Below are positions 13,856 through 27,265 of a DNA stretch of 64,000 nt, piece after piece. Each line of letters begins with the position of its first letter. Position 1 is the stretch's first letter. The position numbers were made by a program, and so were the translations under genes. Origin of the DNA: Candidatus Bathyarchaeota archaeon. Lineage in GTDB: Archaea; Thermoproteota; Bathyarchaeia; Bathyarchaeales; Bathycorpusculaceae. Where the stretch lies: assembly GCA_963826715.1 (NCBI GenBank), contig CAWGYA010000008.1, positions 160,001-224,000 of the forward strand. Direction: 5' to 3'. The notes below the pieces were generated by a model that was not told where the DNA came from, searched no databases, and worked only from the letters and a program-made list of their open reading frames with translations.

Positions 13856-14171
13856 TACAAATTATTCCTCGATTGGTTAAAAGAATAGCTTTAGGTAGTG
13901 CTATAAAAATGTTGGATAGAAAAGTTGCAGATGACAAATTAGAGAGGCACTTTTCATTTCTAATTTTTTAGCTGTTTTATTGGTGCTGTTCCTGATGAAT
14001 ACAGAACCTTTCAATGGATAGTTTCCACATTTCCCTAACATTTTTTCGATGATGTTTACATAAAGCTGTTTAATCTCCATGATGAACTAAAAAATATCTA
14101 TCGGAAAAATATGGAAACTTTTTTATGCAATCAGCCGAATGGCATCAAAGCGATATTACGGAGGAAAATAA

Positions 14172-14342
14172 ATGGCTAAATGTCCAAAATGCGGAACCGA
14201 CGTATCGAAGCCAAAAAAGACATGGAAAATGGCAGGCCGCCCAGACAAAGCTGGAAAACGCATGCAACTCGAAATCGGCCTCTATGAATGCCCCAAATGC
14301 GGCAACGTATTCCGCGAAGTGCTAAGCAAACAAAAAATCTAA
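14172..14342 (+). CDS. cren7: Cren7-like chromatin protein (56 aa, two CxxC)
   Basis: MAKCPKCGTDVSKPKKTWKMAGRPDKAGKRMQLEIGLYECPKCGNVFREVLSKQKI; GGAGG RBS upstream. Confidence 0.8.
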   Translation: MAKCPKCGTDVSKPKKTWKMAGRPDKAGKRMQLEIGLYECPKCGNVFREVLSKQKI

Positions 14343-14351
14343 AAACGAACA

Positions 14352-14389
14352 GTGCCTCAGGATTGAGCACTCTCTATTTTTCTTTTTTT
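14352..14389 (+). terminator. short hairpin plus T-tract after cren7
   Basis: GTGCCTCA...TGAGCAC followed by TTTTTCTTTTTTT. Confidence 0.5.
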
Positions 14390-14416
14390 AAAATACCCGA
14401 TAATTAAAATCAGTTT
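14383..14416. repeat. left attachment/end site
   Basis: TTTTAAAA-N9-ATTAAAATCAGTTT. Confidence 0.75.
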
Positions 14417-14511
14417 TTAGTTTTACATAAAGCGCTATTAATTGGCATAATTAACTTAGGGCAAAATCTAAAAGCTAAAACAGTTTAATTGCAACTATCA
14501 AGGTCTTTAAA

Positions 14512-15312
14512 ATGACATTAATCCTCACTGAAGTCTCAAATTTTGGAATAGCAATGGCGGCTGATTCCGCTGTTACAATCCCAGTTATTAATGCTCATGG
14601 TGACCGACAATACAGGGTTTTGATGGGCGTTAACAAACTACAAGTAATTGAGAAATTAAATGCAGGGATAGCCATTTGGGGATTAGCTGAATTGACAATC
14701 GAACACGACCAAAAAATCGATATTGATGTTTGGTTGCGTGACTTCATACAATCTGAAAGGACAAACTACAATTCTCTTTCTGATTTTGCTACATTATTAC
14801 AAAATCGGATAAGAAATTATGTTGACCCAATAGATGCTGTTCAAAGACCATTAGGAAATATTGGTTTTCATCTTGCGGGTTTTGTAGAATACGAAGGTCA
14901 TCAAACCCCAACATTTTATCATATTCATAATGGCAGAAGTCAGGCGTTGGAGGCAAGAGGAACCCATATTGACCCAACCATCATCAATGCAAACCACGAC
15001 CTTCCTCCAAATTTAACCCAACAAGTTTTTGCTCAAGGGCAAGCATATCTAACTCGAAATGGCGACTTTACAATTTACGCTGCGCTTTTTAACCATATTG
15101 GGCAATTCCTGCAAGGTTTATCTCAATATGGTGGACTCACAATACCGCAATCAAGAAACCTAAAAGAAAGAGCCGAATGGTTGCGATTTCAAATTAAAAC
15201 CATGTCTGAACTTTACAGGCTTAGCAACTTGCATCTTCCAACAATCGGAGGAAAGATTGACACGTTACTCATAACTCCGAATAGTGTTGACGATTGCGGA
15301 TTAACCTTTTAG
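14512..15312 (+). CDS. Ntn-hydrolase, proteasome beta-like peptidase
   Basis: M-T start, GIAMAADS, NKL, FHLAGF, TIGGKI match the T1 peptidase pattern. Confidence 0.65.
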   Translation: MTLILTEVSNFGIAMAADSAVTIPVINAHGDRQYRVLMGVNKLQVIEKLNAGIAIWGLAELTIEHDQKIDIDVWLRDFIQSERTNYNSLSDFATLLQNRIRNYVDPIDAVQRPLGNIGFHLAGFVEYEGHQTPTFYHIHNGRSQALEARGTHIDPTIINANHDLPPNLTQQVFAQGQAYLTRNGDFTIYAALFNHIGQFLQGLSQYGGLTIPQSRNLKERAEWLRFQIKTMSELYRLSNLHLPTIGGKIDTLLITPNSVDDCGLTF

Positions 15313-15330
15313 ATTCCACGGTTCTATGAC

Positions 15331-15606
15331 TCATAAATCACCTAACGGATAGCCTTCACGCTTAATGACCTTAACGCCTTTGGAATTGAACATCATTGTT
15401 TTACTGCTGAAATTTATGTAAAAGCAATCCAAATCTACAAAAACCGAATGATGCTTGTCTGTAACAAACGGAAAGCGTTTCTGTAATCGCTTAACATCTT
15501 CTTGGCTTTCAGGTTCAATAACAAAACCCTCTGCGAAAACTTTGTCGCAAATCGCGCATTTCATGGATTCCTTGATTTCTTTCTTACCGAACCATACAGC
15601 CTTCAA
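15331..15606 (-). CDS. hypothetical protein, possible Zn finger
   Basis: CAIC...DLDC; TTG start overlaps the upstream stop (TTGA). Confidence 0.6.
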   Translation of the reverse strand: MKAVWFGKKEIKESMKCAICDKVFAEGFVIEPESQEDVKRLQKRFPFVTDKHHSVFVDLDCFYINFSSKTMMFNSKGVKVIKREGYPLGDL

Positions 15607-15695
15607 TCGTTAACACCTTTATCCATGCTTTTCGGGATGAACGGAACAAGCGGTTTCACGCTGTATTTTGAGGAACACAAACATGAACAACACAT
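15603..15695 (-). CDS. 30-aa Cys-rich micro-protein
   Basis: MCCSCLCSSKYSVKPLVPFIPKSMDKGVND; AGGTGA RBS; stop coupled to the next start. Confidence 0.4.
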   Translation of the reverse strand: MCCSCLCSSKYSVKPLVPFIPKSMDKGVND

Positions 15696-15867
15696 GCTCC
15701 GTTCACCTTTCCGCGTCTGAAATATCTATGCAGGGATGCTTGATATAATCGTTATCAAACGAATAAGATGTTAAAAGGCAGATTATTTACACGTTCGAGT
15801 TTTTGTTAGTGCAAAAATTTAAAACCATTATTCCGTATTAACAATTGGGAATCAAGAGGGAAATCAT

Positions 15868-16476
15868 ATGTCTATATCTCCATCTAACGACCAAGTAAGA
15901 GTTATTATTTTAGATTTTCTTCATAAGGAATTGCAAGAACATCCAAGGGATGTCACCAATAAAGAAAATATAGTTCAAGCGTTAGGGGTTCCCCAAAAAC
16001 AACTTGACTTTAACATGTTCTATCTTCAAGAAAAGGGATTAGTTGAACTCATAACTGCAATGGACGGTTGGCATTGCGCAAATATAACAGCCTATGGCAT
16101 TGATGTTATCGAAAACAAGGATTCTTACAAAAGCGAATTTCCTTTTATAAATAATACAACAATTCAAGTGCAAGGTAACAATTACGGCGCTATAATTCAA
16201 GCAAATAATCATTCAACCATTATTTTCCATCAGCAAATATCAGATGCTTTCAAGGAAGCTTATGAAAAAATTGAAAAAGAACAAAGTTTAGCTCCTGAAT
16301 TAAAGGAGCAAATAAAAGTCAAAACAAAAGCATTGGAAGAGGAACTCAATAAAGCTGAACCTGATGCAGGGATAATCCAACAATCATGGAAATGGATTAA
16401 ACAAAACGCAAACTGGTTGATTCCAACATTAACCCAAGTTGTTACCGAAGGAATAAAAATTGCCTGTGGGGTTTAA
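15868..16476 (+). CDS. N-terminal winged-helix protein with N/Q/G-rich linker and helical C-terminus
   Basis: YLQEKGLV...ITAYGID wHTH pattern; IQVQGNNYGAIIQANNHS linker. Confidence 0.65.
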   Translation: MSISPSNDQVRVIILDFLHKELQEHPRDVTNKENIVQALGVPQKQLDFNMFYLQEKGLVELITAMDGWHCANITAYGIDVIENKDSYKSEFPFINNTTIQVQGNNYGAIIQANNHSTIIFHQQISDAFKEAYEKIEKEQSLAPELKEQIKVKTKALEEELNKAEPDAGIIQQSWKWIKQNANWLIPTLTQVVTEGIKIACGV

Positions 16477-16498
16477 AGAAAGGCAAAATTGTTAACGA

Positions 16499-16999
16499 TT
16501 ACTTGTTATTCGATGCGAGAACTAAAACTGATAGACCCAAAAGTCCCATAACTATGAATGCAGCGAGCCTTCCTTTGTCTGCGCCATCTTTTATACAATA
16601 GGCTTTCTCTTGAACTTTATTTGCCAATTCATTTAACTTCTCTTGATTCATGGGGTCAAAAGTAGCATAGACTGTCGTATAACTTATCATTAAAGGAACG
16701 GGAACACCTTCTTCTGCAAAAACATAAATTTCCTTTCGAGGTTTTTTGTGATAAGCGGCTGAAATTTCCCAGTTAACCACATCTCTTGTATCTTGGTTGT
16801 TTGCTACGTTTGCCGTCCAAAATACAAAAACTGCTTCAGAAGCTTCTATTGCGTCATCCAATTTTTTGGGTAAAGGAAACGGTGTGGGGTCTTCTACTTT
16901 TGCAAGATATGGCTCAACTGGAATAAGTTTCAAGTTTGAAACAACAGTGTCGATTAACCATCCATCTTTACTGCTGTGCGCGATAAATATACGAACCAT
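16499..16999 (-). CDS. TIR-domain protein with C-terminal transmembrane helix
   Basis: RIFIAHSSKD, AIEASEAVFVFWT, VNWEISAA (catalytic-type Glu); hydrophobic C-terminus. Confidence 0.8.
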   Translation of the reverse strand: MVRIFIAHSSKDGWLIDTVVSNLKLIPVEPYLAKVEDPTPFPLPKKLDDAIEASEAVFVFWTANVANNQDTRDVVNWEISAAYHKKPRKEIYVFAEEGVPVPLMISYTTVYATFDPMNQEKLNELANKVQEKAYCIKDGADKGRLAAFIVMGLLGLSVLVLASNNK

Positions 17000-17037
17000 T
17001 ATCTATTCACTCTTGTCCTTGTATGATTAGTTAATGA

Positions 17038-17081
17038 TTTAAGTTTTTACACTACGAAAGCCTGCGATGCAAAAACTTAAA
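17038..17081. promoter_or_regulatory. back-to-back G(T/C)AAAAACTTAAA motifs (BRE/TATA-like) forming an inverted repeat
   Basis: TTTAAGTTTTTAC...GCAAAAACTTAAA; the same motif is at 17705-17717, with variants at 15811 and 14461. Confidence 0.65.
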
Positions 17082-17104
17082 GCCAAATAAACTGAGTATC
17101 AAAT

Positions 17105-17701
17105 ATGGATGAGATTTGGAAAGAAGCGAAAAATGTCAATGATAAAATTGCAATTAGGCTCGCATCCGTTCCTAATTTTGCCCTGAATGTTTATCATCCA
17201 AAACAGGTTGAATATTATTCAAAATTTACTGAGTTAATATACAAAGCATTAAACGTGGACTCGGTTTGTGGCTTCTTGCAAGAGCTTACCAAAAATCTAA
17301 GCAGCGATAAAATTGAGATAAGAGTCATGCGCTTGCCTTCTAACAGAAGCAAGATATTTGGAATTACCACGAAAGGAAGAATCCTTGACCAGCAGTTATA
17401 TGGACGTGCATGGAAAAAGAAACCTTTGGTTGATATTTTTCCCGACTGCATATTTTCTGACAATAAATCTGAGCCTTATCTGAATGTGGGATTGAGAGGA
17501 TACGTTATCAATGGTTCAATTCGAACAGTAATTCATGAACTTCTCCACAAATCAGGTTTACACGAAGAAACAAAGGTTCGCGAATTAACAGAACAACTTT
17601 ACAAGGAGTTTCGAAAGAAACACATTGCAAACTTTGACAGCGAAATTAAGCCGTTGGTTAAAGAATGGAAAAAATTTGAAAAGCAGATTAACTCAGGTTA
17701 A
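17105..17701 (+). CDS. hypothetical protein with HExxH zincin motif
   Basis: VIHELLH followed by EE. Confidence 0.6.
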   Translation: MDEIWKEAKNVNDKIAIRLASVPNFALNVYHPKQVEYYSKFTELIYKALNVDSVCGFLQELTKNLSSDKIEIRVMRLPSNRSKIFGITTKGRILDQQLYGRAWKKKPLVDIFPDCIFSDNKSEPYLNVGLRGYVINGSIRTVIHELLHKSGLHEETKVRELTEQLYKEFRKKHIANFDSEIKPLVKEWKKFEKQINSG

Positions 17702-17740
17702 CATGCAAAAACTTAAACGTTAATTAGTTGACTATCAAGC

Positions 17741-18157
17741 ATGGTCTATGAAGAGATTGTGATTTCTGTTCTCGGTGTTGTGGGAACTGCAAGCGTCGTC
17801 ACAGCTTGCTTAACATACGTTTTCGACAAGAGAAAGGAAATAGCGTTTAGAGAACAAGAGTACAAAGAAATGCGGTACAAGGCAATGGTACTCCAAATGA
17901 AAGTATTGCTAAAACCAGACGATTTGAAATACATGCAATTACATAGACCCGATTTGAAGAACATGCAAGACGTAAAAAATGAGGTTGAAACCGAACTTTA
18001 CAACTGCCTTCTATTTGCCTCAGATGATGTAATCAAATCATTAAAACAGTTTATTCTAACACCTAACAACATAACTTATGCCAAAACTGTCTTTGCAATG
18101 AGAAAAGATTGTTGGAACAAGAAAACAAGTTTGAGACCTGAAGAAATCAACATCTAA
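17741..18157 (+). CDS. hypothetical protein with N-terminal TM helix
   Basis: Hydrophobic N-terminus; own promoter motif at 17705. Confidence 0.7.
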   Translation: MVYEEIVISVLGVVGTASVVTACLTYVFDKRKEIAFREQEYKEMRYKAMVLQMKVLLKPDDLKYMQLHRPDLKNMQDVKNEVETELYNCLLFASDDVIKSLKQFILTPNNITYAKTVFAMRKDCWNKKTSLRPEEINI

Positions 18158-18183
18158 GTCGCAAAGTCAACTGAGCGATAACC

Positions 18184-18744
18184 ATGAACAAAATTAAGGA
18201 GCTTAAAAATCTTGCAGAGTTGAATTTTTGCGAAAGATGTTTCCAGTATTACAAAGCATTGATTGAACCAAACATAAAGGAATTTTTAGCTAAACCTCTG
18301 AATGATTGGCTGTGGGTCGAAAACCAAATCACTCAGATGGCTATGAAACAGAAAGGTGTATTCAAAACAAAAGAGATAATCATTCCCAATAAGGGCGAGG
18401 AAGAAAAATTCGCTAATCAAATTGACGCAAAGAAATTTAGAGAAATTAATAGATGGAGTTTCAAAAAGAAAATAGATTATCTTCATGCTGAAGGTATCCT
18501 GCAAGATTTCTCTTACAAAGTATTGGATAAAGCGAGACACGCACGAAACAAGATTCATGGAGAGCCTATTTTAACTGAATTAACTGAACAAGATTATGCT
18601 TTGTTCTCTGTATCAAATGCGATTGTCTCTCAATTATGGAGACCAACATTGTTTGAGGACAAGGTTGAAATCGACTCTTTCCTGAAAAATAATGCTGAAA
18701 AAATTGCTGAGTTGTTTTTGAAACAATCAAATAATATTATTTAG
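18184..18744 (+). CDS. HEPN-like protein
   Basis: SFKKKIDYL...ARHARNKIH, an R-x-H motif in a helical protein. Confidence 0.5.
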   Translation: MNKIKELKNLAELNFCERCFQYYKALIEPNIKEFLAKPLNDWLWVENQITQMAMKQKGVFKTKEIIIPNKGEEEKFANQIDAKKFREINRWSFKKKIDYLHAEGILQDFSYKVLDKARHARNKIHGEPILTELTEQDYALFSVSNAIVSQLWRPTLFEDKVEIDSFLKNNAEKIAELFLKQSNNII

Positions 18745-19277
18745 CTACAAGTTTTGGTAGAGTTACCTTGAAAGAGGTTAAGCTTGAAAAATTGCGATAG
18801 ATGAAGCACTTTATCGGTTTCTGTTTGCGGTTGCGCCTTAATCCTTCTTTTCTTTTGCGTCGGAAAGCTACGTTAAGAAAAGCATAGAAGCTCACCTTTC
18901 AAAAGCATCAATATCCAGAATTTTCGCACTTTTAACATCCCAAGTCGAAAGAAAACGAGCAAAATTTCTCCGATAAACGCTGAAATGCGGATGATTTGAG
19001 GAGCTTTAGGCATTATGCTATCAATGTATCAACGATTAATGTTAATTGTTGGTCGCTGTCTGCGTTTGAACGGTGCAAAAGACGCTTTATCATGTTGCAC
19101 AATCTGACGCAAAACATCGTTTATGAATCAATAAAACGCATTTTTAATCACTTCAAGCCCTCATTCATAAGCGTAACAGATAACGATGTTATCTTACTTC
19201 GGATTGACCTCGAAAAGTACAACAACCTCAGAAGCGAATCAGATTAGGTTTAAACGATTTCCTGAGCGACTGTTAAA

Positions 19278-19430
19278 CTAATCATCTATTGACTCAATCA
19301 TGGGTTGACTGCAACATTCAGGAGCTTTCTCTCCTTTGCACACAGCGGAATGAGTGCAACATATTTCATAATCAGCTTTCACAATGCGACCGCATTTGGT
19401 ACACATGAATGTTGGCATGTTTTCGCCCAT
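19278..19430 (-). CDS. 50-aa Cys-rich metal-binding protein
   Basis: MGENMPTFMCTKCGRIVKADYEICCTHSAVCKGEKAPECCSQPMIESIDD. Confidence 0.6.
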   Translation of the reverse strand: MGENMPTFMCTKCGRIVKADYEICCTHSAVCKGEKAPECCSQPMIESIDD

Positions 19431-19553
19431 AATAATTAAGGATTAAAGCCGATTAAAACATTTTCAAAGTTTTCAGGATTTTGCTATCGAAAGCCTGAGT
19501 GATAAAATGAAAACTTTGCGATAATTCGACAAAAAAAAGAAAGAAAAAAAGGT

Positions 19554-19871
19554 TTATTGTGCTGGGGCTTTTATTGCCTCAGAGACGACATTAGCGACCG
19601 CATAAAGGTGATTGCATCGACTTTTTTCGGCTGGTTTAACGTATGCGATTTTGCCCTCCTTTTTCAGCGTTGCCATTTTTGTTCGAATATAGGCGCGTCC
19701 TTGGTCAGCGTCTTTAATGCCTAATTTATCGCTGATTTCGCGCGATGATGCAGGATGCCCAACGTTTTGAACGGCTGTTATAAGCTGTTCAGTTGAGAAA
19801 TTCAGTTTTGCGTTTTGGGTTTTAGTTTTTGAGGTTTTTGTTTTGGGTGTTTTTGACATATGATTCACCAT
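19554..19871 (-). CDS. winged-helix DNA-binding protein
   Basis: PASSREISDKLGI...LKKEGKI; T-tract terminator downstream. Confidence 0.7.
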   Translation of the reverse strand: MVNHMSKTPKTKTSKTKTQNAKLNFSTEQLITAVQNVGHPASSREISDKLGIKDADQGRAYIRTKMATLKKEGKIAYVKPAEKSRCNHLYAVANVVSEAIKAPAQ

Positions 19872-20124
19872 ACATGTACAATATTTAGGCGCTGATTTAA
19901 CCCGTCTTGACTGTTTAGGGCTTGCTTTGAGTCTGTTACACTAAAACATCGTTGAAGCTGTCTCGTACAAGAATTAGGGAATCATGGGTTAAGTCTTTTG
20001 AGAATTGATGCTTTAAAACGCGCGAGCGTTTAAGGTCGAATAAGGTGCGAAAACTTTGCCTTACCGTCGCAAGTACCAATGGTGAAATTTCAGATTTCAA
20101 AAATCCAGAATTGCTGGAATAACT

Positions 20125-20453
20125 TTGGAATTGCGAAATTTCATTTTTACGGAATTCAACGCTACATTATCAAGGGAGTCATATGAAAAAACGTTTATAC
20201 AATTTAACAAAAAGGTTCCTCTTCATACAAGCCAAATTATTCCCTAATATTGTAATTCCGCAATTCCAAAAAACAGTTATGCTGTCACAGCTTCGACACC
20301 ATGATTCCGAAATTGCGGAATTTCACATTTACGGAATTCTTGTCAACTATTGAAAGGGAGGATGTTATTTGTAAAAATGTTTGAACGATATTTCTTCCTA
20401 TATTACAAAACCCTTTGATGAAATGCATAAACCTGTAATTCCGCAATTCCAAA
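20125..20453. repeat. two ~183-bp modules bounded by inverted GGAATTGCGGAATT motifs (candidate origin/iterons)
   Basis: Identical TGTAATTCCGCAATTCCAAA at 20251 and 20434; imperfect inverted copies near 20125 and 20309; TTTACGGAATTC at 20146 and 20328. Confidence 0.85.
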
Positions 20454-20480
20454 TAAAAAATAAAAAGAAAAAATAAGGAG

Positions 20481-21608
20481 CTATTGTGCCAAAGTTATCA
20501 GCCATTCTGTACCTGAACCGCGTTCTTTATTGATGTAATGATATGCTTCAAGTTTCTTGACTAGTCGAGATGCAGTAGCTTCATCGATGTTGAGATATTC
20601 CGCGATTTCTTTTTGATTCGATTGCTTTTCTCTCAACAGATGCAAAGTTTTAACAGCCATTTCTTTATGCTCTTTATTGTTCTGGAATAAATCTGTCAAT
20701 TCTAAATCCATGTCAGCGACTAATTGCTTTGTGGTTATTTCCTTCTTGATTATCTCTGATGTTATCGGGAAAATGTTATCGCTTAAAGCTGTGGCTTCAA
20801 TGCTTCTTTTTATGTACTTCAAGTAACGTCTGAATATGCCTCTGCTTAACTGTGCAGTTAACAGCAAAGCGTCTTCAGTAAATGGTTCTGTGTTGCCCCA
20901 TTTGCTTTTGTATGCTTCAACCATTTCATAGGGCTTCATCGGTGAAAGTTCAACAGCAATCATTTTTCCGAGAAAGAAATGCCCTGCATACATCTCTTTT
21001 TGTATGCCTAAAACAAAAGTCGGCAAAGTTGCTTTCTTGAACACATCGTATTCGGTTATTATGGTGCCTTCTGTCCTTGTAGCACTTTCCGATGTTCTCG
21101 AATCAGCTATCTGTTTCCATATACTTTCTATGCTTCGCAAGTCCTTGCTCATGGCATCTTTGTTTTTCTTGTTGTAGTCTGGAAGGTCAATGAATATCAT
21201 ATTGAAGCTTGAAAGGAAGGCTATGTTTGAAGCATATGGCAATCTCTCGATTATGGTCTTGCCTTCATTCATGAATTGGGCTTCTTTTTCCCTTAACCTT
21301 GTTTCCCAGTCAGGAAGCCAACGGAAAAACAGCGTCTTGATTCCTTTCGCTTTAAAATGGTTAGCCAGCATTTCTAACGTTCGACTTTTGCCTATGCCTT
21401 GAAGACCTATTACACCTATGAAGCCTTCATTAGAGTGCGATAGCATGAATATCAAGCGTTTAGCGTCGTCAGTCATGTAGAAGTTCTCGCTTGCATCCTT
21501 GATGGCTTCCCCTTGCAGATGGGTCGCCCAGTCGTAAACAATGCCTGCCTTCTGCATTGCTGGGTTTGTTCGTGCTTCACGTAATATTTTCAAACATCGT
21601 CCCATCAT
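20481..21608 (-). CDS. AAA+ ATPase with C-terminal wHTH (candidate replication initiator)
   Basis: Walker A GLQGIGKS, Walker B IFIDLPD, SRGIFR, HTH NQKEIAEYLNIDEATASRLVKKL. Confidence 0.75.
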   Translation of the reverse strand: MMGRCLKILREARTNPAMQKAGIVYDWATHLQGEAIKDASENFYMTDDAKRLIFMLSHSNEGFIGVIGLQGIGKSRTLEMLANHFKAKGIKTLFFRWLPDWETRLREKEAQFMNEGKTIIERLPYASNIAFLSSFNMIFIDLPDYNKKNKDAMSKDLRSIESIWKQIADSRTSESATRTEGTIITEYDVFKKATLPTFVLGIQKEMYAGHFFLGKMIAVELSPMKPYEMVEAYKSKWGNTEPFTEDALLLTAQLSRGIFRRYLKYIKRSIEATALSDNIFPITSEIIKKEITTKQLVADMDLELTDLFQNNKEHKEMAVKTLHLLREKQSNQKEIAEYLNIDEATASRLVKKLEAYHYINKERGSGTEWLITLAQ

Positions 21609-21916
21609 AATAATTCCTCAATATTTTGTAGCGGAGAAATTACGCAATTCCGTTTTGCTTTTGGGCGTTCATCGTAGATTATGCCTTTCTCGTCAGCAAT
21701 CACCATGATTTCTCGTTTAGAGGGCAACTTCCCTACCATTTCTGTGCAGAGGTCAAAGCAGATTTTATCTATCTCCGATTCACTGCCTTCGAAGATTAGC
21801 TTAACAAAGTTTTCATCTAACAGTTCTTCGGATAACTTTGTGATTGGAAGGTTGAGTTGTTTTGCGAAGTCGTTTTTGGCTATGATTATTAGCGTTTTAT
21901 TTTTTGTGTTTTCCAT
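21605..21916 (-). CDS. hypothetical protein
   Basis: GAGGT RBS; stop overlaps the ATPase start. Confidence 0.7.
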   Translation of the reverse strand: MENTKNKTLIIIAKNDFAKQLNLPITKLSEELLDENFVKLIFEGSESEIDKICFDLCTEMVGKLPSKREIMVIADEKGIIYDERPKAKRNCVISPLQNIEELL

Positions 21917-22069
21917 ATTGTATTACCTCATGTTGTTTTGCTTTAGCTTTGTCAAACACTCTTCCCGAAGCAAACGATTGAAGCCAGAACGAAACTGAGG
22001 AGTCGATGAGGAAAAATGACCTCAACCGTTTCCCTTTTCGGGAGTGTTTAGACTTTACTAAAGCTGAAG

Positions 22070-22987
22070 CTAATGCACCTCCTTTCCGTAGCCTGAGCGT
22101 CTTATGGCTTGTTCCACGTAACGTCTCGAAGAGATTTCGTCGGTTGTTAGGGGTGATGGAAATGGAACGTTTGCCGTTTCATTGGTTAGAAATTGAAGCT
22201 GGGAAAGGAGACATTCGTACTGTCGTTGGAGGTCGTGAAATTCTTCCAGATTATCCGAGAATGTTTTTGCCAATTGAATGCTGGGCGCTCCATTTTGAAG
22301 GGTCTTCCATGCTTCACGGTTAGCTTGGACAACGATTGGTCGAATAGTTGTAGCTTTTTTGGTTATCTCTTTCAGCTTGGTTTTTATTTCTTTGATTCGT
22401 GGGCTGTTTTGTCTTTTAGAAATTTCGGCTTCATAGATTGCAATTCGGCGTTTGCGAATAACTATTGCCTTTTCAAGAACAGCGATTTCAGCTTTAGCCA
22501 ACTTTTCTCGGTAAGGATAATCCGATGATGAGATGAGTTCAATGCCGTTGCCATTTTGAATTTCAATTGTTTCGTGTTTTTCAGCTTTCTTCTTTGTTTC
22601 TTCACTAAGTATTGTTGTTAAGCGAAATTGTATGGCTTCGATGTATCCATCGACTTTTGAACGTTCGTTTTCGCTATCTTTTGTTAATTCCCGAAATTTC
22701 AGCGTGTTGGCATATGTTTTGATTATTTCATCGATGTCTTCGGAATTGTTGTAAGTGTGATTGCCTGCAATTTTGTCTCCCAAATTCAAAAATAACTTAA
22801 CTTCTCGTTTCTCATTATCCCGTGTCGCTTCTCCCTGAAGCCTCTTTAGCTCTGCTTCATATTCTTCCTTGGTTGCGTTCCCTGCCTTGTATGCAAGTTG
22901 AACGGCTGATTCGTTATAACGGGAAATGGTTGCTGAGCCTATTCTGTGATGTATTATTACTAATTCAATGTCTTTTTCGTCTGTCGT
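22070..22987 (-). CDS. coiled-coil hypothetical protein (start uncertain, possibly ACG at 22987)
   Basis: Long charged helical ORF; ORF track extends it to 23083, overlapping the RHH gene. Confidence 0.65.
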   Translation of the reverse strand, partial: TTDEKDIELVIIHHRIGSATISRYNESAVQLAYKAGNATKEEYEAELKRLQGEATRDNEKREVKLFLNLGDKIAGNHTYNNSEDIDEIIKTYANTLKFRELTKDSENERSKVDGYIEAIQFRLTTILSEETKKKAEKHETIEIQNGNGIELISSSDYPYREKLAKAEIAVLEKAIVIRKRRIAIYEAEISKRQNSPRIKEIKTKLKEITKKATTIRPIVVQANREAWKTLQNGAPSIQLAKTFSDNLEEFHDLQRQYECLLSQLQFLTNETANVPFPSPLTTDEISSRRYVEQAIRRSGYGKEVH

Positions 22988-22988
22988 T

Positions 22989-23189
22989 TTACTTCCCCCC
23001 TTTTTGCTCGAATAAATCAAGGCATTTGTTGAGAAATTCATCATACGTGAGTGCCCGAGAACACAACAATTTAAGCCGTTCAAGGGTTCCCCGTTTGATG
23101 TTTATGCTTGTCAATTCTTCATACAATTTTAATTCCTCATTGTTTTCATTTTTTACATGATATACAATTGAACAACGTTTATATGACAA
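22989..23189 (-). CDS. small ribbon-helix-helix (CopG-like) regulator
   Basis: TSINIKRGTLERLK...TYDEFLNKCLD pattern. Confidence 0.6.
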   Translation of the reverse strand: MSYKRCSIVYHVKNENNEELKLYEELTSINIKRGTLERLKLLCSRALTYDEFLNKCLDLFEQKGGK

Positions 23190-23224
23190 ATATCGTACAT
23201 TTTATTTCATAAAATGAACAAAAA

Positions 23225-23746
23225 TTGTACATGGTGAAACATTTGTTATCAAAAGGCATGAAGAAATATGTATTAAGCGAGGACAAATCGGGTTACGATA
23301 AAGGCACTCAAAATACGTACAACTATCGCTTAAGAATAGACGTTAGGGAAGCAATTGAAGACCTTACCATGATACTTCAAAAACTGCCTGAGTCAGAATT
23401 GGAAGGTTTGTTTAATGACCGCACAATGGCACCCTTTTTTGAGGCATTGTTTAAAGTGCAAATAAATGCCAAAGACCATGAAGAATGGATACAGAAGAAG
23501 CATTCAAAGGAAATAAGAGTAAAACGGCAACGTTTGTTTAGATTGTCAAAAAGGGTGCTCGACATCGTAAGCAAAGGCTCTTTCGTTTCAACAATTTTAC
23601 CTGAAAGCTCAAAACATCATCTCGGTGATAAGATTGGGGTTCACGAAAAGAACCTGATAGAGATGTTTAAGATAGACAGAAATGCGCTTGAATATGATGA
23701 AAACTTTGCGAATAACGACACAAACAAAAAGAAGAATAACGGTTAA
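23225..23746 (+). CDS. hypothetical protein, divergent from the RHH gene
   Basis: 173 aa ORF; stop overlaps the integrase stop. Confidence 0.65.
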   Translation: MYMVKHLLSKGMKKYVLSEDKSGYDKGTQNTYNYRLRIDVREAIEDLTMILQKLPESELEGLFNDRTMAPFFEALFKVQINAKDHEEWIQKKHSKEIRVKRQRLFRLSKRVLDIVSKGSFVSTILPESSKHHLGDKIGVHEKNLIEMFKIDRNALEYDENFANNDTNKKKNNG

Positions 23747-25005
23747 TCGTTACTCACAACGATTTTCCCGCTTGGAAGCGTAGTTACAACCTGATAGCCG
23801 TCAGCTAACAGTTCAGGTAATTCGCTTTCGTTCACAATGCGCTGACAATGTTTGCCGTCAGTACAACCTTTAGCTTTTGGTTTAACCGTTTTAATTTTTT
23901 CCTCTGTTGCTTCTTCCAAAACATCAACTTCATCCTTAATGTTAAGTTCGCGTCCAAGAACAATGGATTTCTGTCGAAAGATTGTTTTCATTTCGCCATC
24001 GCTTAAACCTTGCAGTTTCGCAAGCATCAACAACGCTTGTTTCTTAGCCATCAATTCCATATCACCTTGCTCAAAAGATTTAACGAAAGTTGTTTCGCCC
24101 ATAGCACGTTGATAATCTTCCCTCAATTGGTCGGGGCTAACGTATGCGCTTTCAGGAACAGTTTTACCGACAATTTGTTTCCATTTGCTTTCAGACATAT
24201 AGTTGCTTAAATGGTCAATCAAAAACTTACGCAAACAGTGAAAGCGTATGTTCTTGTTACCGTATTTTATCCCTGCCTTATCAGCTACACGCAGAAGAAT
24301 TCGAGAAAGCTGAATTTCATCACGATATTTCAGAATACGCTCATTAGCATCTGTGCGTCCATCCCTGCTCATTTGCTCAAGAAACATCTTCACAACAGGT
24401 TTAGCGTCTGTGTCTATGAACGGAAAGGCAGTAACGTTTTCCTTTTGAGTGCATAATTCACCTATGCTGATTGGCGATTCACGGTCAATGTATGCTTCCA
24501 AATCACCGCGTCTTAAACCAATGAAGTCGCCAGCTCGCAAGCCGAAAGATTTGCCAACCGTAATGATGTATTTTTCAGTTAAGTCAGCGTGGTCACACAT
24601 TTTCTTTAAATCGTCTTTGCTGAAGCGATAGTCCTCTTGAACTCTTTTATATTCAGTTAATTTCGCCTTTTCGGTGTTTCTGAACTCTAAGCCTAATCGG
24701 TGGTATGCAAAGAAGGAGCGAACAGAAGTTATAGCGACAACGCCTGAACCTGAGCTTTGTTTTTTGTTTTCCATCACCCAAGGTTTGAAAGTTAAAGTTT
24801 TTTTCTCCCAAGAGTATTCTTTGTCTGTTTTGCGGTTTACAAGAATTTGGTCGCCTGTCATACCAACGTATTCAAGAAAATATCTCCACATTGTTTGATA
24901 ACTTGACTTTGTTGATTTCTTTAAACTATTCAACCATTCATTGGTTGCTAAATCGTTTGGAAACCACTCGTTTGTTTTTACGTTCATATTTATGTTCCTC
25001 AACAT
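23743..25005 (-). CDS. tyrosine recombinase/integrase
   Basis: GLRAGD (R), TQKE (K), FHCLRK (HxxR), IVGK, ESAY (Y); N-terminal core-binding region. Confidence 0.9.
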   Translation of the reverse strand: MLRNINMNVKTNEWFPNDLATNEWLNSLKKSTKSSYQTMWRYFLEYVGMTGDQILVNRKTDKEYSWEKKTLTFKPWVMENKKQSSGSGVVAITSVRSFFAYHRLGLEFRNTEKAKLTEYKRVQEDYRFSKDDLKKMCDHADLTEKYIITVGKSFGLRAGDFIGLRRGDLEAYIDRESPISIGELCTQKENVTAFPFIDTDAKPVVKMFLEQMSRDGRTDANERILKYRDEIQLSRILLRVADKAGIKYGNKNIRFHCLRKFLIDHLSNYMSESKWKQIVGKTVPESAYVSPDQLREDYQRAMGETTFVKSFEQGDMELMAKKQALLMLAKLQGLSDGEMKTIFRQKSIVLGRELNIKDEVDVLEEATEEKIKTVKPKAKGCTDGKHCQRIVNESELPELLADGYQVVTTLPSGKIVVSND

Positions 25006-25040
25006 GAACGTATGTCAGTGCCATATTTATACGAGTCCGT

Positions 25041-25073
25041 AAACTGATTTTAATAATAGTTTTTTTTAAAATA
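25041..25073. repeat. right attachment/end site
   Basis: AAACTGATTTTAAT-N9-TTTTAAAA, mirroring the left site. Confidence 0.75.
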
Positions 25074-25295
25074 AATAGCTCAAAGCTATTTGCAAATTTA
25101 AAGAATATTCGGTCTTTTGAAAGCTAAATATATTCTACAAAATTTTCGAAAACGAAGACCTGCGATGTTAAAGCACCAATGAAAATGGTAATTTAACAAA
25201 AAAGGGGAGCACCAAACCATCATAGATGTATTTATAAAGAAAGGTTCCGATAAAATGATATTTAAAGGCGGGTTAAAAGCAAGGAGTGAAAATAA

Positions 25296-25865
25296 TTGCC
25301 CAAAGTGAAGGCGACAATAAGCATTGAAAACGTGGTCGCTTCTGCAACAATAAACCAAAAAGTCGACTTAAATTCAGTTGTTAAGGGCTATCCGAGTGTG
25401 GAATACCGACCTGAACAATTCCCAGGTCTAGTTTTTAGGCTAAAACGTCCAAAAACTGCAACCTTGATTTTTAGTTCCGGAAAAATGGTTTGCACCGGGG
25501 CTAAATCAGAGAAAGAAGCAAAACGAGCCGTCACGAAAGTGGTTAAGGAACTAAAAAAAGGCGGTATCATCATCATTAGCAAACCTGAAATGAAAATTCA
25601 GAACATCGTAGCTTCAGGTGGACTTGGTGGAATGATAGACCTAGAAAAAGCTGCATATACCCTTGGGCATGCCATGTATGAACCAGAGCAGTTTCCCGGA
25701 TTAATTTACCGAATGGAAGATCCCAAAGTAGTGATCCTACTTTTTGCCAGCGGTAAACTAGTCTGCACAGGCGCGAAACGGGAACCGGACGTATATACAG
25801 CCGTAGAAAAATTGCATTCACTACTGGAAGAAACCGATCTTATTTTTTACGAGCAATCAGTTTAG
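25296..25865 (+). CDS. tbp: TATA-box binding protein
   Basis: Two repeats of (E/Q)N(V/I)VAS...Y.PEQFPGL...F.SGK.VCTGAK. Confidence 0.98.
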   Translation: MPKVKATISIENVVASATINQKVDLNSVVKGYPSVEYRPEQFPGLVFRLKRPKTATLIFSSGKMVCTGAKSEKEAKRAVTKVVKELKKGGIIIISKPEMKIQNIVASGGLGGMIDLEKAAYTLGHAMYEPEQFPGLIYRMEDPKVVILLFASGKLVCTGAKREPDVYTAVEKLHSLLEETDLIFYEQSV

Positions 25866-26488
25866 TGTTTAACTTGTTTTAAAATTGTTTTGAAACTTTC
25901 TTGTTCAATTGCGCCAACAATATAGAGTATTTTTGCGACCTCACTGATTTTTAGTAACGCATGAACATTCACACCGTTCTGCTCCAGCAGTTCTTTTCCG
26001 CCTTCTTCGCGGTCCAAAAACACAACAGAATCCGTCACAATTCCTCCTTCAGCCTGGATAGCGTCTACGGCGTTTTTAATCGTCAATCCAGTCGTTAATA
26101 AATCATCAATCACAAGTACTTCGTCGCCAGAAATCAGAATTCCTTCAACACGGCGTTTTCTGCCGTGGAGTTTTATGCCTTTGCGGACGTAGAGGAAGGG
26201 TTTTTTGAGATTATAAGCAATTTGAGATGCAAAAGATATGCCAGCAAGAGGGATACCTGAAATACGATCAAAGCTCTTCAGACCAATTTGATCAGAGATG
26301 GTTTGGGAGTATAAATCGCAAATTTCTTTAAAAGCATCTGGAAAACTGGGAATGACCCGCAAATCAACGTAGTATGGACTGGCTTTACCAGAGGATAATG
26401 TAAAGACCCCGAATTTAATTGCACCAATTTTAAAGAGAAGGCTGGCCATCTGGTTCTTTTTGTCTAACCCAATTTTCCCTATTTCCAT
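25862..26488 (-). CDS. pyrE: orotate phosphoribosyltransferase
   Basis: FTLSSGKASPYYVDLR, YVRK, VLVIDDLLTTG. Confidence 0.95.
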   Translation of the reverse strand: MEIGKIGLDKKNQMASLLFKIGAIKFGVFTLSSGKASPYYVDLRVIPSFPDAFKEICDLYSQTISDQIGLKSFDRISGIPLAGISFASQIAYNLKKPFLYVRKGIKLHGRKRRVEGILISGDEVLVIDDLLTTGLTIKNAVDAIQAEGGIVTDSVVFLDREEGGKELLEQNGVNVHALLKISEVAKILYIVGAIEQESFKTILKQVKH

Positions 26489-26492
26489 TTTT

Positions 26493-27182
26493 TCACGTCA
26501 ATTTAGAAACTTGGTATATTCGGTCTTGCTGAGGTATCAAACACGCAGTTCTGCGTAGATCTCGTTTAAGCAGCTCAGCGAATTCATTTTGGCTCTGGAC
26601 GGAACCGGTGTGGTAAGGAACGGCAAGTGGTGGATTTGTTAAGCGCGCGATTTCAAAACCGGTTTCGGGACTGTGACCTGGTGCGATACCAACACTGCAA
26701 AAGACCACGTCGAACTTTTCCCGCTGCGCCAAAAGCGTCAACTCGGGAAAAGGAAGACTGTCAGCTGTGTGGTACATTTTGACGTTGTCCTCGCTGGTTA
26801 TTATATATGTGACTGGCGCTTGGGCATTGTGGTTACATTTTTCTGCTTTGATTGTGACTCCACCAATTTTAGTAACTTGCCCCGGTTTGATTTCCTGAAG
26901 CTTGTCGGTAGGGATATTGAGTTGAAGTTTTTTAGCGGAGGCTTGGTCCGCGATAACTCTACAACCTGTAGAGTTTTGCAATGCAGCAACAAGCGGGGGG
27001 TCAAGGTGATCGTAGTGTTCATGAGTAACTAGGATGGCGTCGAGCACGGGGAAGTCTTTTGGTCTAATATCTACAGGATCAATAGCTAATGTTTTAGTAG
27101 GGGTTTTAATCAGGATGCCCGCATATTGATTGAACCAAACAAAGAAGAGCGTGTTGGCCTCAGGTATTTTTTGTATGGACAA
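26493..27182 (-). CDS. MBL-fold metallo-hydrolase
   Basis: IDP, THEHYDH, YHTADS, VPYH; TTG start after RBS. Confidence 0.85.
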   Translation of the reverse strand: MSIQKIPEANTLFFVWFNQYAGILIKTPTKTLAIDPVDIRPKDFPVLDAILVTHEHYDHLDPPLVAALQNSTGCRVIADQASAKKLQLNIPTDKLQEIKPGQVTKIGGVTIKAEKCNHNAQAPVTYIITSEDNVKMYHTADSLPFPELTLLAQREKFDVVFCSVGIAPGHSPETGFEIARLTNPPLAVPYHTGSVQSQNEFAELLKRDLRRTACLIPQQDRIYQVSKLT

Positions 27183-27265
27183 ACTTGATTCCTCACATCT
27201 ATATACGACTCTGGTTTTAAAGAAGTTACGCATTACTTTAAAGTTGTAAAAGAGGATGAGAAAGT

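What the first reader, a model, noticed from the sequence alone, without database searches (positions are those of the whole stretch)
14383..25073. tRNA-independent archaeal element with Tn916-like end geometry
Seen: read inward, both ends are TTTTAAAA-N9-ATTAAAATCAGTTT with different N9 spacers (TACCCGATA versus AAAACTATT). The inner 14-mers are a perfect inverted repeat, TTTTTTTAAAATA is directly repeated outside, there is no tRNA, and the integrase is intact rather than split. Established: Tn916-type tyrosine integrases use inverted ends, non-identical coupling sequences and AT-rich targets, whereas SSV1/pNOB8/SNJ2-type archaeal integrases target tRNAs. Inference: a homology-independent tyrosine-recombinase transposon or integrative plasmid that inserted at the cren7 terminator. 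Excision would give a junction AAACTGATTTTAAT-N-ATTAAAATCAGTTT.
Basis: partly seen in the sequence, partly recalled or inferred. Interest (0 to 1): 0.8.

Follow-up and report, generated by a model that had tools for sequence, protein, structure and literature searches.

The report
Small integrative element in Bathyarchaeia
A 10.7-kb mobile element sits between two housekeeping genes of a soil archaeon, inserted by its own integrase through ordinary site-specific recombination at a short AT-rich site, not by Tn916-like transposition.

Summary
The repeats are real. The 14-mer inverted repeat lies at 14403-14416 and 25041-25054, its only two exact copies in the 2.64-Mb genome. The 13-bp direct repeat lies at 14383-14395 and 25061-25073.

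Contigs from two soil-metagenome runs of the same population join 14382 to 25061. They skip exactly 10,678 bp, and 13 letters fit either side. That is an empty site with one copy of the direct repeat.

So this is a precisely bounded, population-polymorphic integrative element of a Bathyarchaeia archaeon. The 13-bp repeat is the att core.

They are missing from the empty site. A sister element (integrase 84% identical) keeps them at a different host locus.

The integrase is intact. Its fold is closest to XerA, integron and lambda integrases; Tn1549 ranks 33rd.

Six of 27 related elements share the geometry: 13-bp inverted repeats 27-29 bp apart around a 10-13-bp direct repeat. Controls gave 0 of 81.

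Integration outside tRNA genes at short AT-rich sites is already published for archaea (PMC6563490, PMC8371274, PMC11529989).

Verdict: observation confirmed; Tn916-like reading rejected; a new member of a known kind.

The parts
14172..14342 (+).
   Evidence: ORF. It is 87-96% identical in relatives. Pfam Cren7 scores only 16.6 bits against a cut-off of 25.
14364..14389 (+). Host T-rich terminator tract of the Zn-ribbon gene
   Evidence: GCACTCTC..TTTTTCTTTTTTT or a close variant is printed after the stop codon in most of the 13 relatives' loci and in G238; L014, L006, L013 and L003 diverge. That a T-run acts as an archaeal terminator is established knowledge, not tested here.
14383..14395 (.). 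attL copy of the 13-bp att core (direct repeat TTTTTTTAAAATA)
   Evidence: The empty-site joint 14382->25061 has 13 letters that fit either side.
14396..14402 (.). Left spacer CCCGATA: element DNA between core and inverted repeat
   Evidence: Absent from the empty site. Identical in sister element L067 at another locus.
14403..14416 (+). Left 14-bp inverted repeat (integrase-distal)
   Evidence: An identical 14-mer lies at the integrase-distal end of L067.
14512..15312 (+). 266-aa ORF, unknown; not shared with the sister element
   Evidence: Searches give no significant family. No blastn match to L067.
15331..15606 (-). 91-aa ORF of the conserved backbone
   Evidence: Window 15331-15748 matches L067 at 80%. 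A 91-aa ORF lies in the same place in L067.
15868..16476 (+). 202-aa cargo ORF with weak hits only
   Evidence: PHROG 436 at 1.8e-6. PADLOC PDC-M14B at 2.7e-5.
16499..16999 (-). 166-aa TIR-domain protein with a hydrophobic C-terminus; candidate defence cargo
   Evidence: Pfam TIR_2 at 1.3e-6, 29.3 bits against a cut-off of 28. PADLOC ThsB at 2.1e-4. Not shared with L067.
17105..18744 (+). Three cargo ORFs (198, 138 and 186 aa), unknown
   Evidence: No significant family. Not shared with L067.
19554..19871 (-). 105-aa backbone ORF
   Evidence: Window 19544-20341 matches L067 at 78%. The only family hit is weak: LexA N-terminal region at E 0.007.
20124..20456 (.). Four copies of a roughly 30-nt repeat, two in each orientation, upstream of the ATPase gene; candidate origin or operator
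   Evidence: the repeat finder families D1, D5 and I2-I4, I6. The region is conserved in L067. Function is inferred.
20481..21608 (-). 375-aa P-loop/AAA-type ATPase with a C-terminal winged helix; candidate replication or regulatory protein
   Evidence: Pfam MarR at 1e-5, nSTAND3 at 4e-4, AAA_22 at 3e-3. Atlas look-alikes are archaeal AAA_22/AAA_14 plus HTH clusters. L067 has a 375-aa ORF in the matching position.
21605..21916 (-). 103-aa backbone ORF
   Evidence: Window 20462-21806 matches L067 at 73%.
22070..23083 (-). 337-aa ORF, unknown; a 322-aa ORF lies in the same place in L067
   Evidence: No family.
23225..23746 (+). 173-aa ORF next to int, unknown
   Evidence: No family. A 185-aa ORF lies in the same place in L067.
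23743..25005 (-). Tyrosine integrase, 420 aa, intact
   Evidence: PHROG integrase at 3.2e-9. NCBIfam XerA at 1.6e-9, below its cut-off. Residues R157, K188, H256, R259 and Y288 are invariant in 12 homologues. AF2 model has pLDDT 85.2. Best fold match is XerA 5hxy at E 3.3e-8.
25041..25054 (-). Right 14-bp inverted repeat, just upstream of the TATA-like box of int
   Evidence: Its position relative to TATAAATA and the int start is kept in L067 and G063.
25055..25060 (.). Right spacer (AATAG plus one T): element DNA
   Evidence: Absent from the empty site. AATAG against AATCG in the sister element.
25061..25073 (.). attR copy of the 13-bp att core
25074..25295 (+). Host intergenic DNA upstream of tbp
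   Evidence: The empty-site contig of run X2 runs 14268-14382 then 25061-25217 with no differing letters. Other species align only from about 25219.
25296..25865 (+). Host TATA-binding protein gene; right neighbour
   Evidence: Pfam TBP at 6.8e-62. 83-93% identical over the full length in 18 of 19 relatives' loci; L018 matches in pieces.

Best explanation
This is a 10,678-bp integrative element of a soil Bathyarchaeia archaeon. It may be plasmid-like or viral; no capsid gene was recognised.

Its own intact tyrosine integrase (23743-25005, -) inserted it by conservative site-specific recombination. The partners were an element site (attP) and a short AT-rich host site (attB), a T-run/A-run at the terminator of a Zn-ribbon gene upstream of tbp. 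The two partners share the 13-bp core TTTTTTTAAAATA, which now flanks the element as attL and attR.

The 14-bp perfect inverted repeats lie inside the element, 7 bp and 6 bp from the core. On the excised circle (25041-25073 followed by 14396-14416) they would stand 26 bp apart. Their centre of symmetry would fall exactly on the T|A junction of the core.

Shown: the boundaries, the single-core empty site, the mixed population, and the conserved spacers in a sister element at another locus.

Inferred: strand exchange occurs in a 6-8-bp overlap around the T|A junction. The inverted repeats are integrase-binding sites of attP. The right one, next to the int promoter, may also regulate int.
For: 1. 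Empty site. One contig each in runs X1 (depth 4.4, 92 nt on the shorter side) and X2 (depth 2.9, 115 nt) joins 14382 to 25061. The joint skips 10678 bp, with 13 letters fitting either side. X2 record 12 has no differing letters. X3 and X4 show no joint. X1 also holds element contigs.

2. Synteny. The Zn-ribbon gene lies within 1.5 kb of tbp in 13 of 19 loci from congeneric species, and 1.7 and 2.4 kb away in two more. Left-flank homology ends at 14389-14393.

3. Sister element L067 (integrase 84% identical). It has the same end anatomy: the same 14-mer at the far end, 11 of 14 at the near end, spacer CCCGATA identical, AATAG against AATCG, and a 10-bp direct repeat TTTAAAAAAA. It sits at a different locus between convergent genes. 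That locus is empty in the window's own genome, at G000:C8 about 875850. The window's site holds no element in that genome.

4. A third element (G063, integrase about 50% identical, 17.4 kb) has a 12-bp direct repeat and 11-of-13 inverted repeats at the same spacing. Its site is empty in G057, G046 and G048.

5. Geometry scan. I looked for 13-bp inverted repeats (up to 3 mismatches) 27-29 bp apart around a direct repeat of 10 bp or more. It hit 6 of 27 distinct elements, 0 of 54 decoy windows inside int, and 0 of 27 reversed near-windows.

6. Integrase. Catalytic R157, K188, H256, R259 and Y288 are invariant. The model has pLDDT 85.2. XerA, IntI, Brujita and lambda Int are the best fold matches.

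7. G+C drops inside the element.
Against: - No circle junction was seen. Only the skipping joint was reported, and the runs are held as contigs, which drop rare variants.
- X1 may be the sample the genome was assembled from. All four runs come from one study.
- Insertion cannot be told from excision.
- Four other exact copies of the 13-mer in the genome are unoccupied. The sister element uses another locus. So what fixes the target is not explained.
- Binding of the integrase to the inverted repeats is untested. They lie 14-27 bp from the symmetry centre. From recalled structures, that is further out than the core-type sites of Cre or XerCD.
- 21 of the 27 related elements gave no hit in the geometry scan. 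For most of them only about 10 kb beyond int was held, so those misses say little.
Confidence: 0.85

Rival explanations
1. Tn916/Tn1549-type element. The integrase cuts with a stagger in non-identical coupling sequences next to the inverted ends. No identity between element and target is needed, and the circle carries a heteroduplex joint.
For: Inverted repeats lie near both ends, the target is AT-rich, there is no tRNA, and the tyrosine integrase is intact. Sister elements sit at two different loci. Tn1549 Int does appear among the fold matches, at rank 33 with E 6.6e-3.
Against: - The empty site keeps exactly one 13-bp core and lacks both spacers.
- The spacers are conserved in a sister element at another locus. 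Coupling sequences should change with each move.
- Identical direct repeats of 13, 10 and 12 bp flank three elements.
- The best fold matches are XerA, IntI and lambda Int.
- No Xis-like or conjugation gene was recognised by Pfam, PHROGs, NCBIfam or PADLOC.
Confidence: 0.03
2. A cut-and-paste or casposon-like transposon. Its 13-bp direct repeat would be a target-site duplication made by staggered cleavage and repair, and the inverted repeats would be subterminal transposase sites.
For: Direct repeats flank inverted repeats, and the empty site has one repeat copy. Archaeal casposons are known to carry inverted terminal repeats and target duplications (PMC6563490, passages).
Against: - No Cas1, DDE or HUH enzyme was recognised. 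The only recombinase is a tyrosine integrase.
- Repeat length varies between relatives: 13, 10, 12, 12, 11 and 13 bp.
- The repeat is nearly the same T/A tract in two sister elements at unrelated loci. That fits a core specified by the element, not a copy of an arbitrary target.
Confidence: 0.04
3. The element is a small provirus rather than a plasmid-like element. The integration mechanism would be the same.
For: Half of the backbone ORFs have no recognisable family. Structural proteins of small archaeal viruses often escape profile searches; this point is recalled, not tested.
Against: - No capsid, portal, terminase or other virion family appears in PHROGs or Pfam.
- IMG/VR holds no relative of the integrase, and neither do the phage or plasmid collections.
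- The backbone holds an ATPase with a winged helix beside a repeat cluster, which looks like a replicon.
Confidence: 0.15
4. A fixed genomic island whose end repeats are chance matches in AT-rich DNA.
For: The 13-mer is low-complexity and occurs 6 times in the genome.
Against: - The presence/absence break lies exactly at the repeat in two runs.
- The 14-mer occurs only at the two ends.
- The same anatomy is seen in relatives, with 0 of 81 controls.
Confidence: 0.01

Closest known systems
Yucahu-i and other integrated elements of Atabeyarchaeia (Asgard), PMC11529989 (passages read)
   Same: About 10.9 kb against 10.7 kb here. The tyrosine integrase is the first gene. Insertion is at a short AT-rich motif (11 bp there, 13 bp here) that is present at both ends. 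Integrated and empty forms coexist in soil populations. [quoted passage not shown]
   Different: The host class and the att motif differ. A circular form was seen there and not here. The passages I read mention no flanking inverted repeats. Sequence relatedness of the integrases was not tested, because I held no sequence of theirs.
Thaumarchaeal integrated elements at non-tRNA sites (cryptic integrated elements), PMC6563490 (passages read)
   Same: Tyrosine-recombinase elements with short att repeats, as short as 8 bp with a median of 17. Of 68 elements, 15 are intergenic and 14 lie in 3' ends of protein genes. One has a 13-bp att at a Zn-finger protein gene.
   Different: The host lineage differs. 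Here the site lies 40 bp past the stop codon, in the terminator. Their att tables are in supplements that I could not see, so I do not know whether they record inverted repeats.
Prophage PsiM100 of Methanothermobacter and phage lambda (as described in PMC8371274, passage)
   Same: An AT-rich intergenic att site, an intact integrase, and neighbouring genes left undisturbed.
   Different: Those are tailed viruses. Lambda has arm-type sites and accessory proteins, none of which is shown here.
Tn916/Tn1549 conjugative transposons
   Same: A tyrosine integrase, inverted repeats near the ends, and a taste for AT-rich targets. These family features are recalled. Tn1549 Int structures are among the fold hits.
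   Different: Here an identical core is present at both ends and once in the empty site. The spacers are fixed element DNA. No conjugation or Xis genes were recognised, and the integrase fold is closer to XerA and lambda Int.
Archaeal XerA/dif
   Same: The closest solved fold and sequence: 5hxy at E 3.3e-8 and 4a8e at E 3.1e-5. The recombination site is symmetric.
   Different: dif is 11-6-11 (PMC8371274, passage), while here the arrangement is 14-26-14. NCBIfam XerA scores 37.8 bits against a cut-off of 220. This protein has an extra C-terminal region of about 110 aa. It is encoded on a mobile element.

Membership tests
Tyrosine recombinase superfamily | Catalytic R..K..HxxR..(H/W)..Y set | tested here: met
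   R157, K188, H256, R259 and Y288 are invariant, and W275 nearly invariant, in 12 homologues. Box I aligns with XerA GLR. Assigning K188 and W275 to catalytic roles is my inference from their position.
Tyrosine recombinase superfamily | Two-domain fold: core-binding plus catalytic | tested here: met
   The AF2 model has pLDDT 85.2. Foldseek gives 23 PDB matches at E<=0.001; all those listed at that level are tyrosine recombinases, with XerA best at 3.3e-8. Pfam itself gives no hit at E<=0.1.
Site-specific integrative element with an intact integrase gene (functionally 'type II', pNOB8-like class of archaeal integrases) | The int gene is not split by integration | tested here: met
   One 420-aa frame. 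The att core lies 56 bp upstream of the int start.
Site-specific integrative element with an intact integrase gene (functionally 'type II', pNOB8-like class of archaeal integrases) | An identical att core flanks the element, and the empty site carries it once | tested here: met
Site-specific integrative element with an intact integrase gene (functionally 'type II', pNOB8-like class of archaeal integrases) | Sequence relatedness to pNOB8, SNJ2 or SSV integrases | not tested
Site-specific integrative element with an intact integrase gene (functionally 'type II', pNOB8-like class of archaeal integrases) | A circular excised form with attP | tested here: inconclusive
   No back-joining joint was reported in 4 runs, but those runs are held as contigs only.
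Tn916/Tn1549 family | Non-identical coupling sequences next to the ends, and no shared core | tested here: not met
   a single 13-bp core in the empty site, and spacers conserved between elements at different loci.
Tn916/Tn1549 family | An integrase of the Tn916 type with an N-terminal arm-binding domain, plus Xis | tested here: not met
   Tn1549 Int ranks 33rd at E 6.6e-3, behind XerA, IntI and lambda Int. No Xis family was found. The N-terminal domain was not examined separately.
Tn916/Tn1549 family | A conjugation module | tested here: not met
   No conjugation family appears among the ORFs scanned.
Casposon or DDE transposon | A Cas1 or DDE transposase, with a fixed-length target duplication abutting the terminal inverted repeats | tested here: not met
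   No such enzyme was found. The repeat is separated from the inverted repeat by 6-7 bp and varies from 10 to 13 bp among relatives.
Cren7 (the neighbour gene's label) | A Pfam Cren7 match above the gathering score | tested here: not met
   16.6 bits against 25, E 0.0076. Many Zn-ribbon models score alike.

The most novel reading that the evidence does not exclude
This Bathyarchaeia integrase family (576 database homologues, none with a Pfam domain on record) may read a two-part attP. One part is a short AT-rich crossover core. The other is a pair of distal 13-bp inverted repeats at a fixed spacing of about 28 bp, perhaps contacted by the conserved C-terminal helical arm and small beta/alpha domain (residues about 313-418). 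The host site would need only about 10 bp of T/A-tract identity. Sister elements could then move among transcription terminators, which is looser targeting than a classical one-site integrase shows.
Probability: 0.2. Interest if true: 0.5.

Novelty: new member of a known kind. Interest (0 to 1): 0.3.

Why it matters
Non-viral mobile elements of Bathyarchaeia appear not to have been described. Two full-text searches found only papers on viruses or proviruses, or papers on other archaeal or bacterial groups. The terms were Bathyarchaeia + integrase + mobile genetic elements (12 papers, 10 listed) and Bathyarchaeota + tyrosine recombinase + integrated (3 papers, 2 listed).

This element comes with base-pair-exact boundaries, an empty site from the same population, a sister element at a second locus, and a repeat geometry shared across an integrase family that Pfam does not recognise. 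That makes it a clean starting point for two tasks: annotating integrated elements in Bathyarchaeia genomes, and testing how a short AT-rich core plus flanking inverted repeats specify integration.

It also carries candidate defence cargo, a TIR-domain protein, in a variable region.

It does not show a new recombination mechanism in archaea. The Tn916-like idea is rejected.

Tried and rejected
1. Exact 36-nt left-flank pattern in metagenome contigs: 0 matches.

2. Integrase in metagenome contigs: 36 pattern matches, none a relative.

3. Integrase alignment in IMG/VR: 58 pattern matches, none a relative. tblastn against plasmids and phages: no match at 1e-5.

4. A first k-mer search for end repeats in related loci gave several chance pairs, which I dropped. 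Examples are L056 939/5299 inside coding DNA and L063 19507/16571.

5. A first control for the geometry scan varied the total spacing. It was uninformative, because real elements reappear at shifted registers. I replaced it with decoy windows.

6. Rows left out of the 27-element scan:
- Five loci that repeat places already held (L069, L070, L074, L078, L082).
- Eight loci that I never scanned (L076, L079, L081, L084, L088, L092, L097, L098). I left them out for short contigs, a cut integrase match or little DNA beyond int, without checking each; L081 and L098 do hold about 10 kb on the other side of int.

7. The 66-nt insert of G010 that resembles both element ends is single-copy in G010. So it is not a miniature repeat family.

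8. Scanning the paralogous integrase on contig C2 for the same geometry gave 0 hits.

9. Parts of the element without cover in runs X2-X4 are not evidence of absence. Contig depths are not copy numbers.

10. The sigma-70/terminator scan of 14100-14600 does not apply to archaea and showed nothing.

11. Four relatives' loci without the Zn-ribbon gene within 1.5 kb (L017-L020) were not followed up.

12. Supplements of PMC6563490 (att tables) were not requested because supplements are closed. They may list comparable sites.

Full report
OBSERVATION. The 13-mer TTTTTTTAAAATA lies at 14383-14395 and 25061-25073. The 14-mer ATTAAAATCAGTTT lies at 14403-14416 on the + strand and at 25041-25054 on the - strand. 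Read inward, each end is TTTTAAAA, nine bases, then the 14-mer.

The repeat finder ranks this pair as the longest inverted repeat of the region, with 34-nt arms that are 82% complementary. In the window's own genome (2,639,800 bp, 8 contigs) the exact 14-mer occurs only at these two places. The 13-mer occurs six times, these two included. One of 20,000 random pairs of 30-nt genome windows shared 13 nt or more.

No tRNA is found in the 64-kb window, and no Rfam family matches at E<=0.1 in 12000-27500. G+C falls from about 0.44-0.47 to 0.35-0.41 inside. The integrase frame 23743-25005 (-) is whole at 420 aa.

HOST AND NEIGHBOURS. Record titles of related loci name the lineage as Bathyarchaeia/Bathyarchaeota for 32 of 34 loci. 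One title says WOR-3 bacterium (a 4-kb contig) and one says Methanocella.

The right neighbour is tbp (Pfam TBP 6.8e-62). The left neighbour is a 56-aa Zn-ribbon protein. Its Cren7 score of 16.6 bits is under the cut-off of 25, so I do not call it cren7.

The right flank matched in 40 of 41 genomes searched, G000 included; I examined the 19 loci returned for relatives. In 13 of them both neighbour genes lie within 1.5 kb of each other. In two more they lie 1.7 and 2.4 kb apart. Four loci were not followed up.

Most relatives carry one to three tandem genes for a protein that I judge, by motif recall only, to be signal-peptidase-like. These genes lie between the two neighbours. The window and three relatives lack them.

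Homology of the left flank stops at 14389-14393, inside the T-run that ends the Zn-ribbon gene. On the right, other species align only from about 25219.

EMPTY SITE IN THE SAME POPULATION. Four soil-metagenome runs of one study hold the host flank, with word shares of 0.96 to 0.44. I laid them on 13000-26500.

One contig each in X1 and X2 joins 14382 to 25061. The joint skips 10,678 bp, and 13 letters fit on either side. The X2 contig covers 14268-14382 and 25061-25217 with no differing letters. X3 and X4 show no joint.

X1 also holds contigs of the element, so both forms are assembled from that sample. X1 may be the source of the genome, and contig depths are not copy numbers. No back-joining joint and no loose end was reported.

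This fixes the element at 10,678 bp, counting one copy of the 13-mer. It shows that 25074-25218 is host DNA. It also shows that the stretches between the 13-mer and the 14-mers (14396-14402 and 25055-25060) leave with the element.

SISTER ELEMENT AT ANOTHER LOCUS. L067 comes from a 2.94-Mb chromosome and encodes an integrase 84% identical. It is the only close relative among 120 genomes of the genus; 14 of 120 have a homologue at E<=1e-40, G000 included. G277 lies at the same coordinates as L067's record, so it appears to be the same genome.

Its backbone matches the window at 73-81% over these parts: int, the ATPase region, the repeat cluster with the 105-aa ORF, 18901-19278, and 15331-15748. 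The left end matches at 86%. The cargo at 14512-15312 and 15868-18744 is not shared.

Its integrase-distal end reads host DNA, then T7-AAATA, CCCGATA and the exact 14-mer. Its integrase-proximal end has the 14-mer at 11 of 14, then AATCG where the window has AATAG, then a T8/A9 tract. The repeat shared by its two ends is TTTAAAAAAA, 10 bp.

The host flanks differ from the window's. Here the element lies between two convergent genes. That locus is uninterrupted in the window's own genome at G000:C8 about 875850, where the tract reads T7-AG-A8. Conversely, the Zn-ribbon/tbp interval of that genome holds no element.

Spacers that stay the same at two unrelated loci cannot be coupling sequences carried over from a previous target.

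THE WIDER FAMILY. A third element (G063, integrase about 50% identical, 17.4 kb) has a 12-bp direct repeat, TTAATTGTAGTT. Its 13-bp inverted repeats match at 11 of 13 and are related to the window's. The repeat-to-inverted-repeat distances are 7 and 9 bp. Its site is uninterrupted in G057, G046 and G048.

Measured between 13-mers, the spacer on the reconstructed circle is 28 bp in all three elements, and the direct repeat straddles its centre.

I scanned 27 distinct elements for this geometry: 13-bp inverted repeats with up to 3 mismatches, a spacer of 27-29 bp, and a direct repeat of 10 bp or more. It found six: the window, L067, G063, L083, L091 and L093. It found none in 54 decoy windows inside int and none in 27 reversed near-windows.

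The boundaries of L083, L091 and L093 are not checked by empty sites. For most of the other 21 elements, only about 10 kb beyond int was held. No tRNA lies at any of these ends. The repeats differ between lineages and all are AT-rich.

INTEGRASE. Pfam finds nothing at E<=0.1. PHROG integrase families score 3e-9. NCBIfam XerA scores 37.8 bits, far under its cut-off of 220. A profile of 12 homologues finds archaeal XerA 4a8e at 3.1e-5.

R157, K188, H256, R259 and Y288 are invariant. The AlphaFold model has pLDDT 85.2. It matches XerA 5hxy best (E 3.3e-8), then integron IntI, Brujita Int and lambda Int. Tn1549 Int is rank 33 at E 6.6e-3.

After the catalytic domain come three long helices (313-373) and a small conserved beta/alpha domain (388-418). 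The family has 576 database members at E<=1e-5, none with a Pfam domain on record, and JGI names many of them 'integrase'.

HOW IT MOST LIKELY WORKS. Integration is conservative site-specific recombination between attP and a host T/A tract that share 10-13 bp.

On the circle, the two 14-mers would stand 26 bp apart. The centre of their symmetry would fall exactly on the T|A junction; this follows from coordinates 25055-25073 plus 14396-14402.

The identity shared by attL and attR in the three checked elements overlaps over about 10 bp around that centre. That leaves room for a normal 6-8-bp overlap. This last step is inference.

The inverted repeats are absent from the host sites, so they are features of attP. 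I infer that the integrase binds them, possibly through its extra C-terminal domain.

The right one lies directly upstream of the TATA-like box of int, in the window, in L067 and in G063. That suggests autoregulation. None of this binding is shown.

Insertion into the T-run leaves the host terminator intact at attL and leaves the tbp promoter region untouched.

NATURE OF THE ELEMENT. The conserved backbone holds:
- int;
- ORFs of 173, 337 and 103 aa;
- a 375-aa P-loop ATPase with a C-terminal winged helix;
- a cluster of four roughly 30-nt repeats in two orientations;
- ORFs of 105 and 91 aa.

No virion, conjugation or transposase family was recognised. I read it as plasmid-like. A small provirus is not excluded.

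The variable part carries a TIR-domain protein (Pfam TIR_2 29.3 bits against 28; ThsB 2.1e-4) and unknown ORFs.

COMPARISON AND NOVELTY. Integration outside tRNA genes with short att repeats is documented in the papers below. I read passages only.
- Thaumarchaeota: 15 intergenic and 14 protein-gene sites among 68 elements, with att as short as 8 bp (PMC6563490).
- The review of archaeal tyrosine recombinases notes such sites (PMC8371274).
- Asgard Atabeyarchaeia: Yucahu-i is a 10,867-bp element with an 11-bp AT-rich att, and integrated, empty and circular forms coexist in soil (PMC11529989).

Two full-text searches found no description of non-viral integrative elements of Bathyarchaeia. The Bathyarchaeia virus paper mentions only viral integrases (PMC10541130, passages).

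The finding is therefore a well-delimited new member of a known kind. The Tn916-like claim is rejected.

Supplements were not available. The runs are held as contigs from one study. No experiment was possible.

Noticed in passing
Loci L003-L009, L013-L015, L065, L066, L105 (interval between the Zn-ribbon gene and tbp in relatives): Most congeners carry one, two (G016) or three (G008) tandem copies of a gene of about 160-190 aa between the two neighbours. By motif recall I judge the product signal-peptidase-like. The window and L010-L012 lack it, and L010 and L011 keep a 3' remnant. This interval is a variable spot of the genus.
   Followed up: partly
L011:2940-3012 (G010), just after the Zn-ribbon terminator: A roughly 66-nt insert relative to L010 contains ATACCCGATA (the window's left spacer region, 10 of 10) and AAAGTGATTTT (10 of 11 to the right inverted repeat). 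It is single-copy in G010. It may be a scar of a related element at the same site, or chance.
   Followed up: partly
G000:C2:301768-302748 (-), outside the window: A second integrase, about 30% identical, lies in the same genome. The geometry scan found no matching end repeats within about 20 kb.
   Followed up: partly
window 20124-20456: Four copies of a roughly 30-nt unit, two per orientation, lie between the 105-aa ORF and the ATPase gene. They are conserved in the sister element. They look like an origin or operator.
   Followed up: no
G159:C1:79438-80634 and 89626-90810 (L058): Two integrase homologues (54% identical to the query) lie 10.2 kb apart in the same orientation. This suggests two elements in tandem. 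Palindromes GTCAAGTTTTCTTGAC lie upstream of the first.
   Followed up: no
G000: C2:423180, C5:55955, C8:30897, C8:529250: Four further exact copies of the 13-bp core are unoccupied. The copy at C8:529250 also resembles the window's attB flank. They may be secondary sites.
   Followed up: no
window 16499-16999 (-): A TIR-domain protein with a hydrophobic C-terminal tail lies in the variable cargo region, beside several unknown ORFs. It may be a defence gene carried by the element.
   Followed up: partly
window 23743-25005 (-), residues 313-418 of the integrase: Three long helices and a small beta/alpha domain follow the catalytic domain. The motif CxDGxHCQRIV ... LPSGKIVV is conserved across the family. 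Its function is unknown.
   Followed up: no
L076 and L080: Two integrase homologues lie on contigs labelled WOR-3 bacterium (4 kb, 47% identical) and Methanocella sp. (42% identical). This could be mis-binning or spread beyond Bathyarchaeia.
   Followed up: no
G218:C1:2101314-2101826 and 2107298-2107810: Two identical-scoring C-terminal integrase fragments (residues 239-418, 49% identical) lie 6 kb apart in one genome.
   Followed up: no
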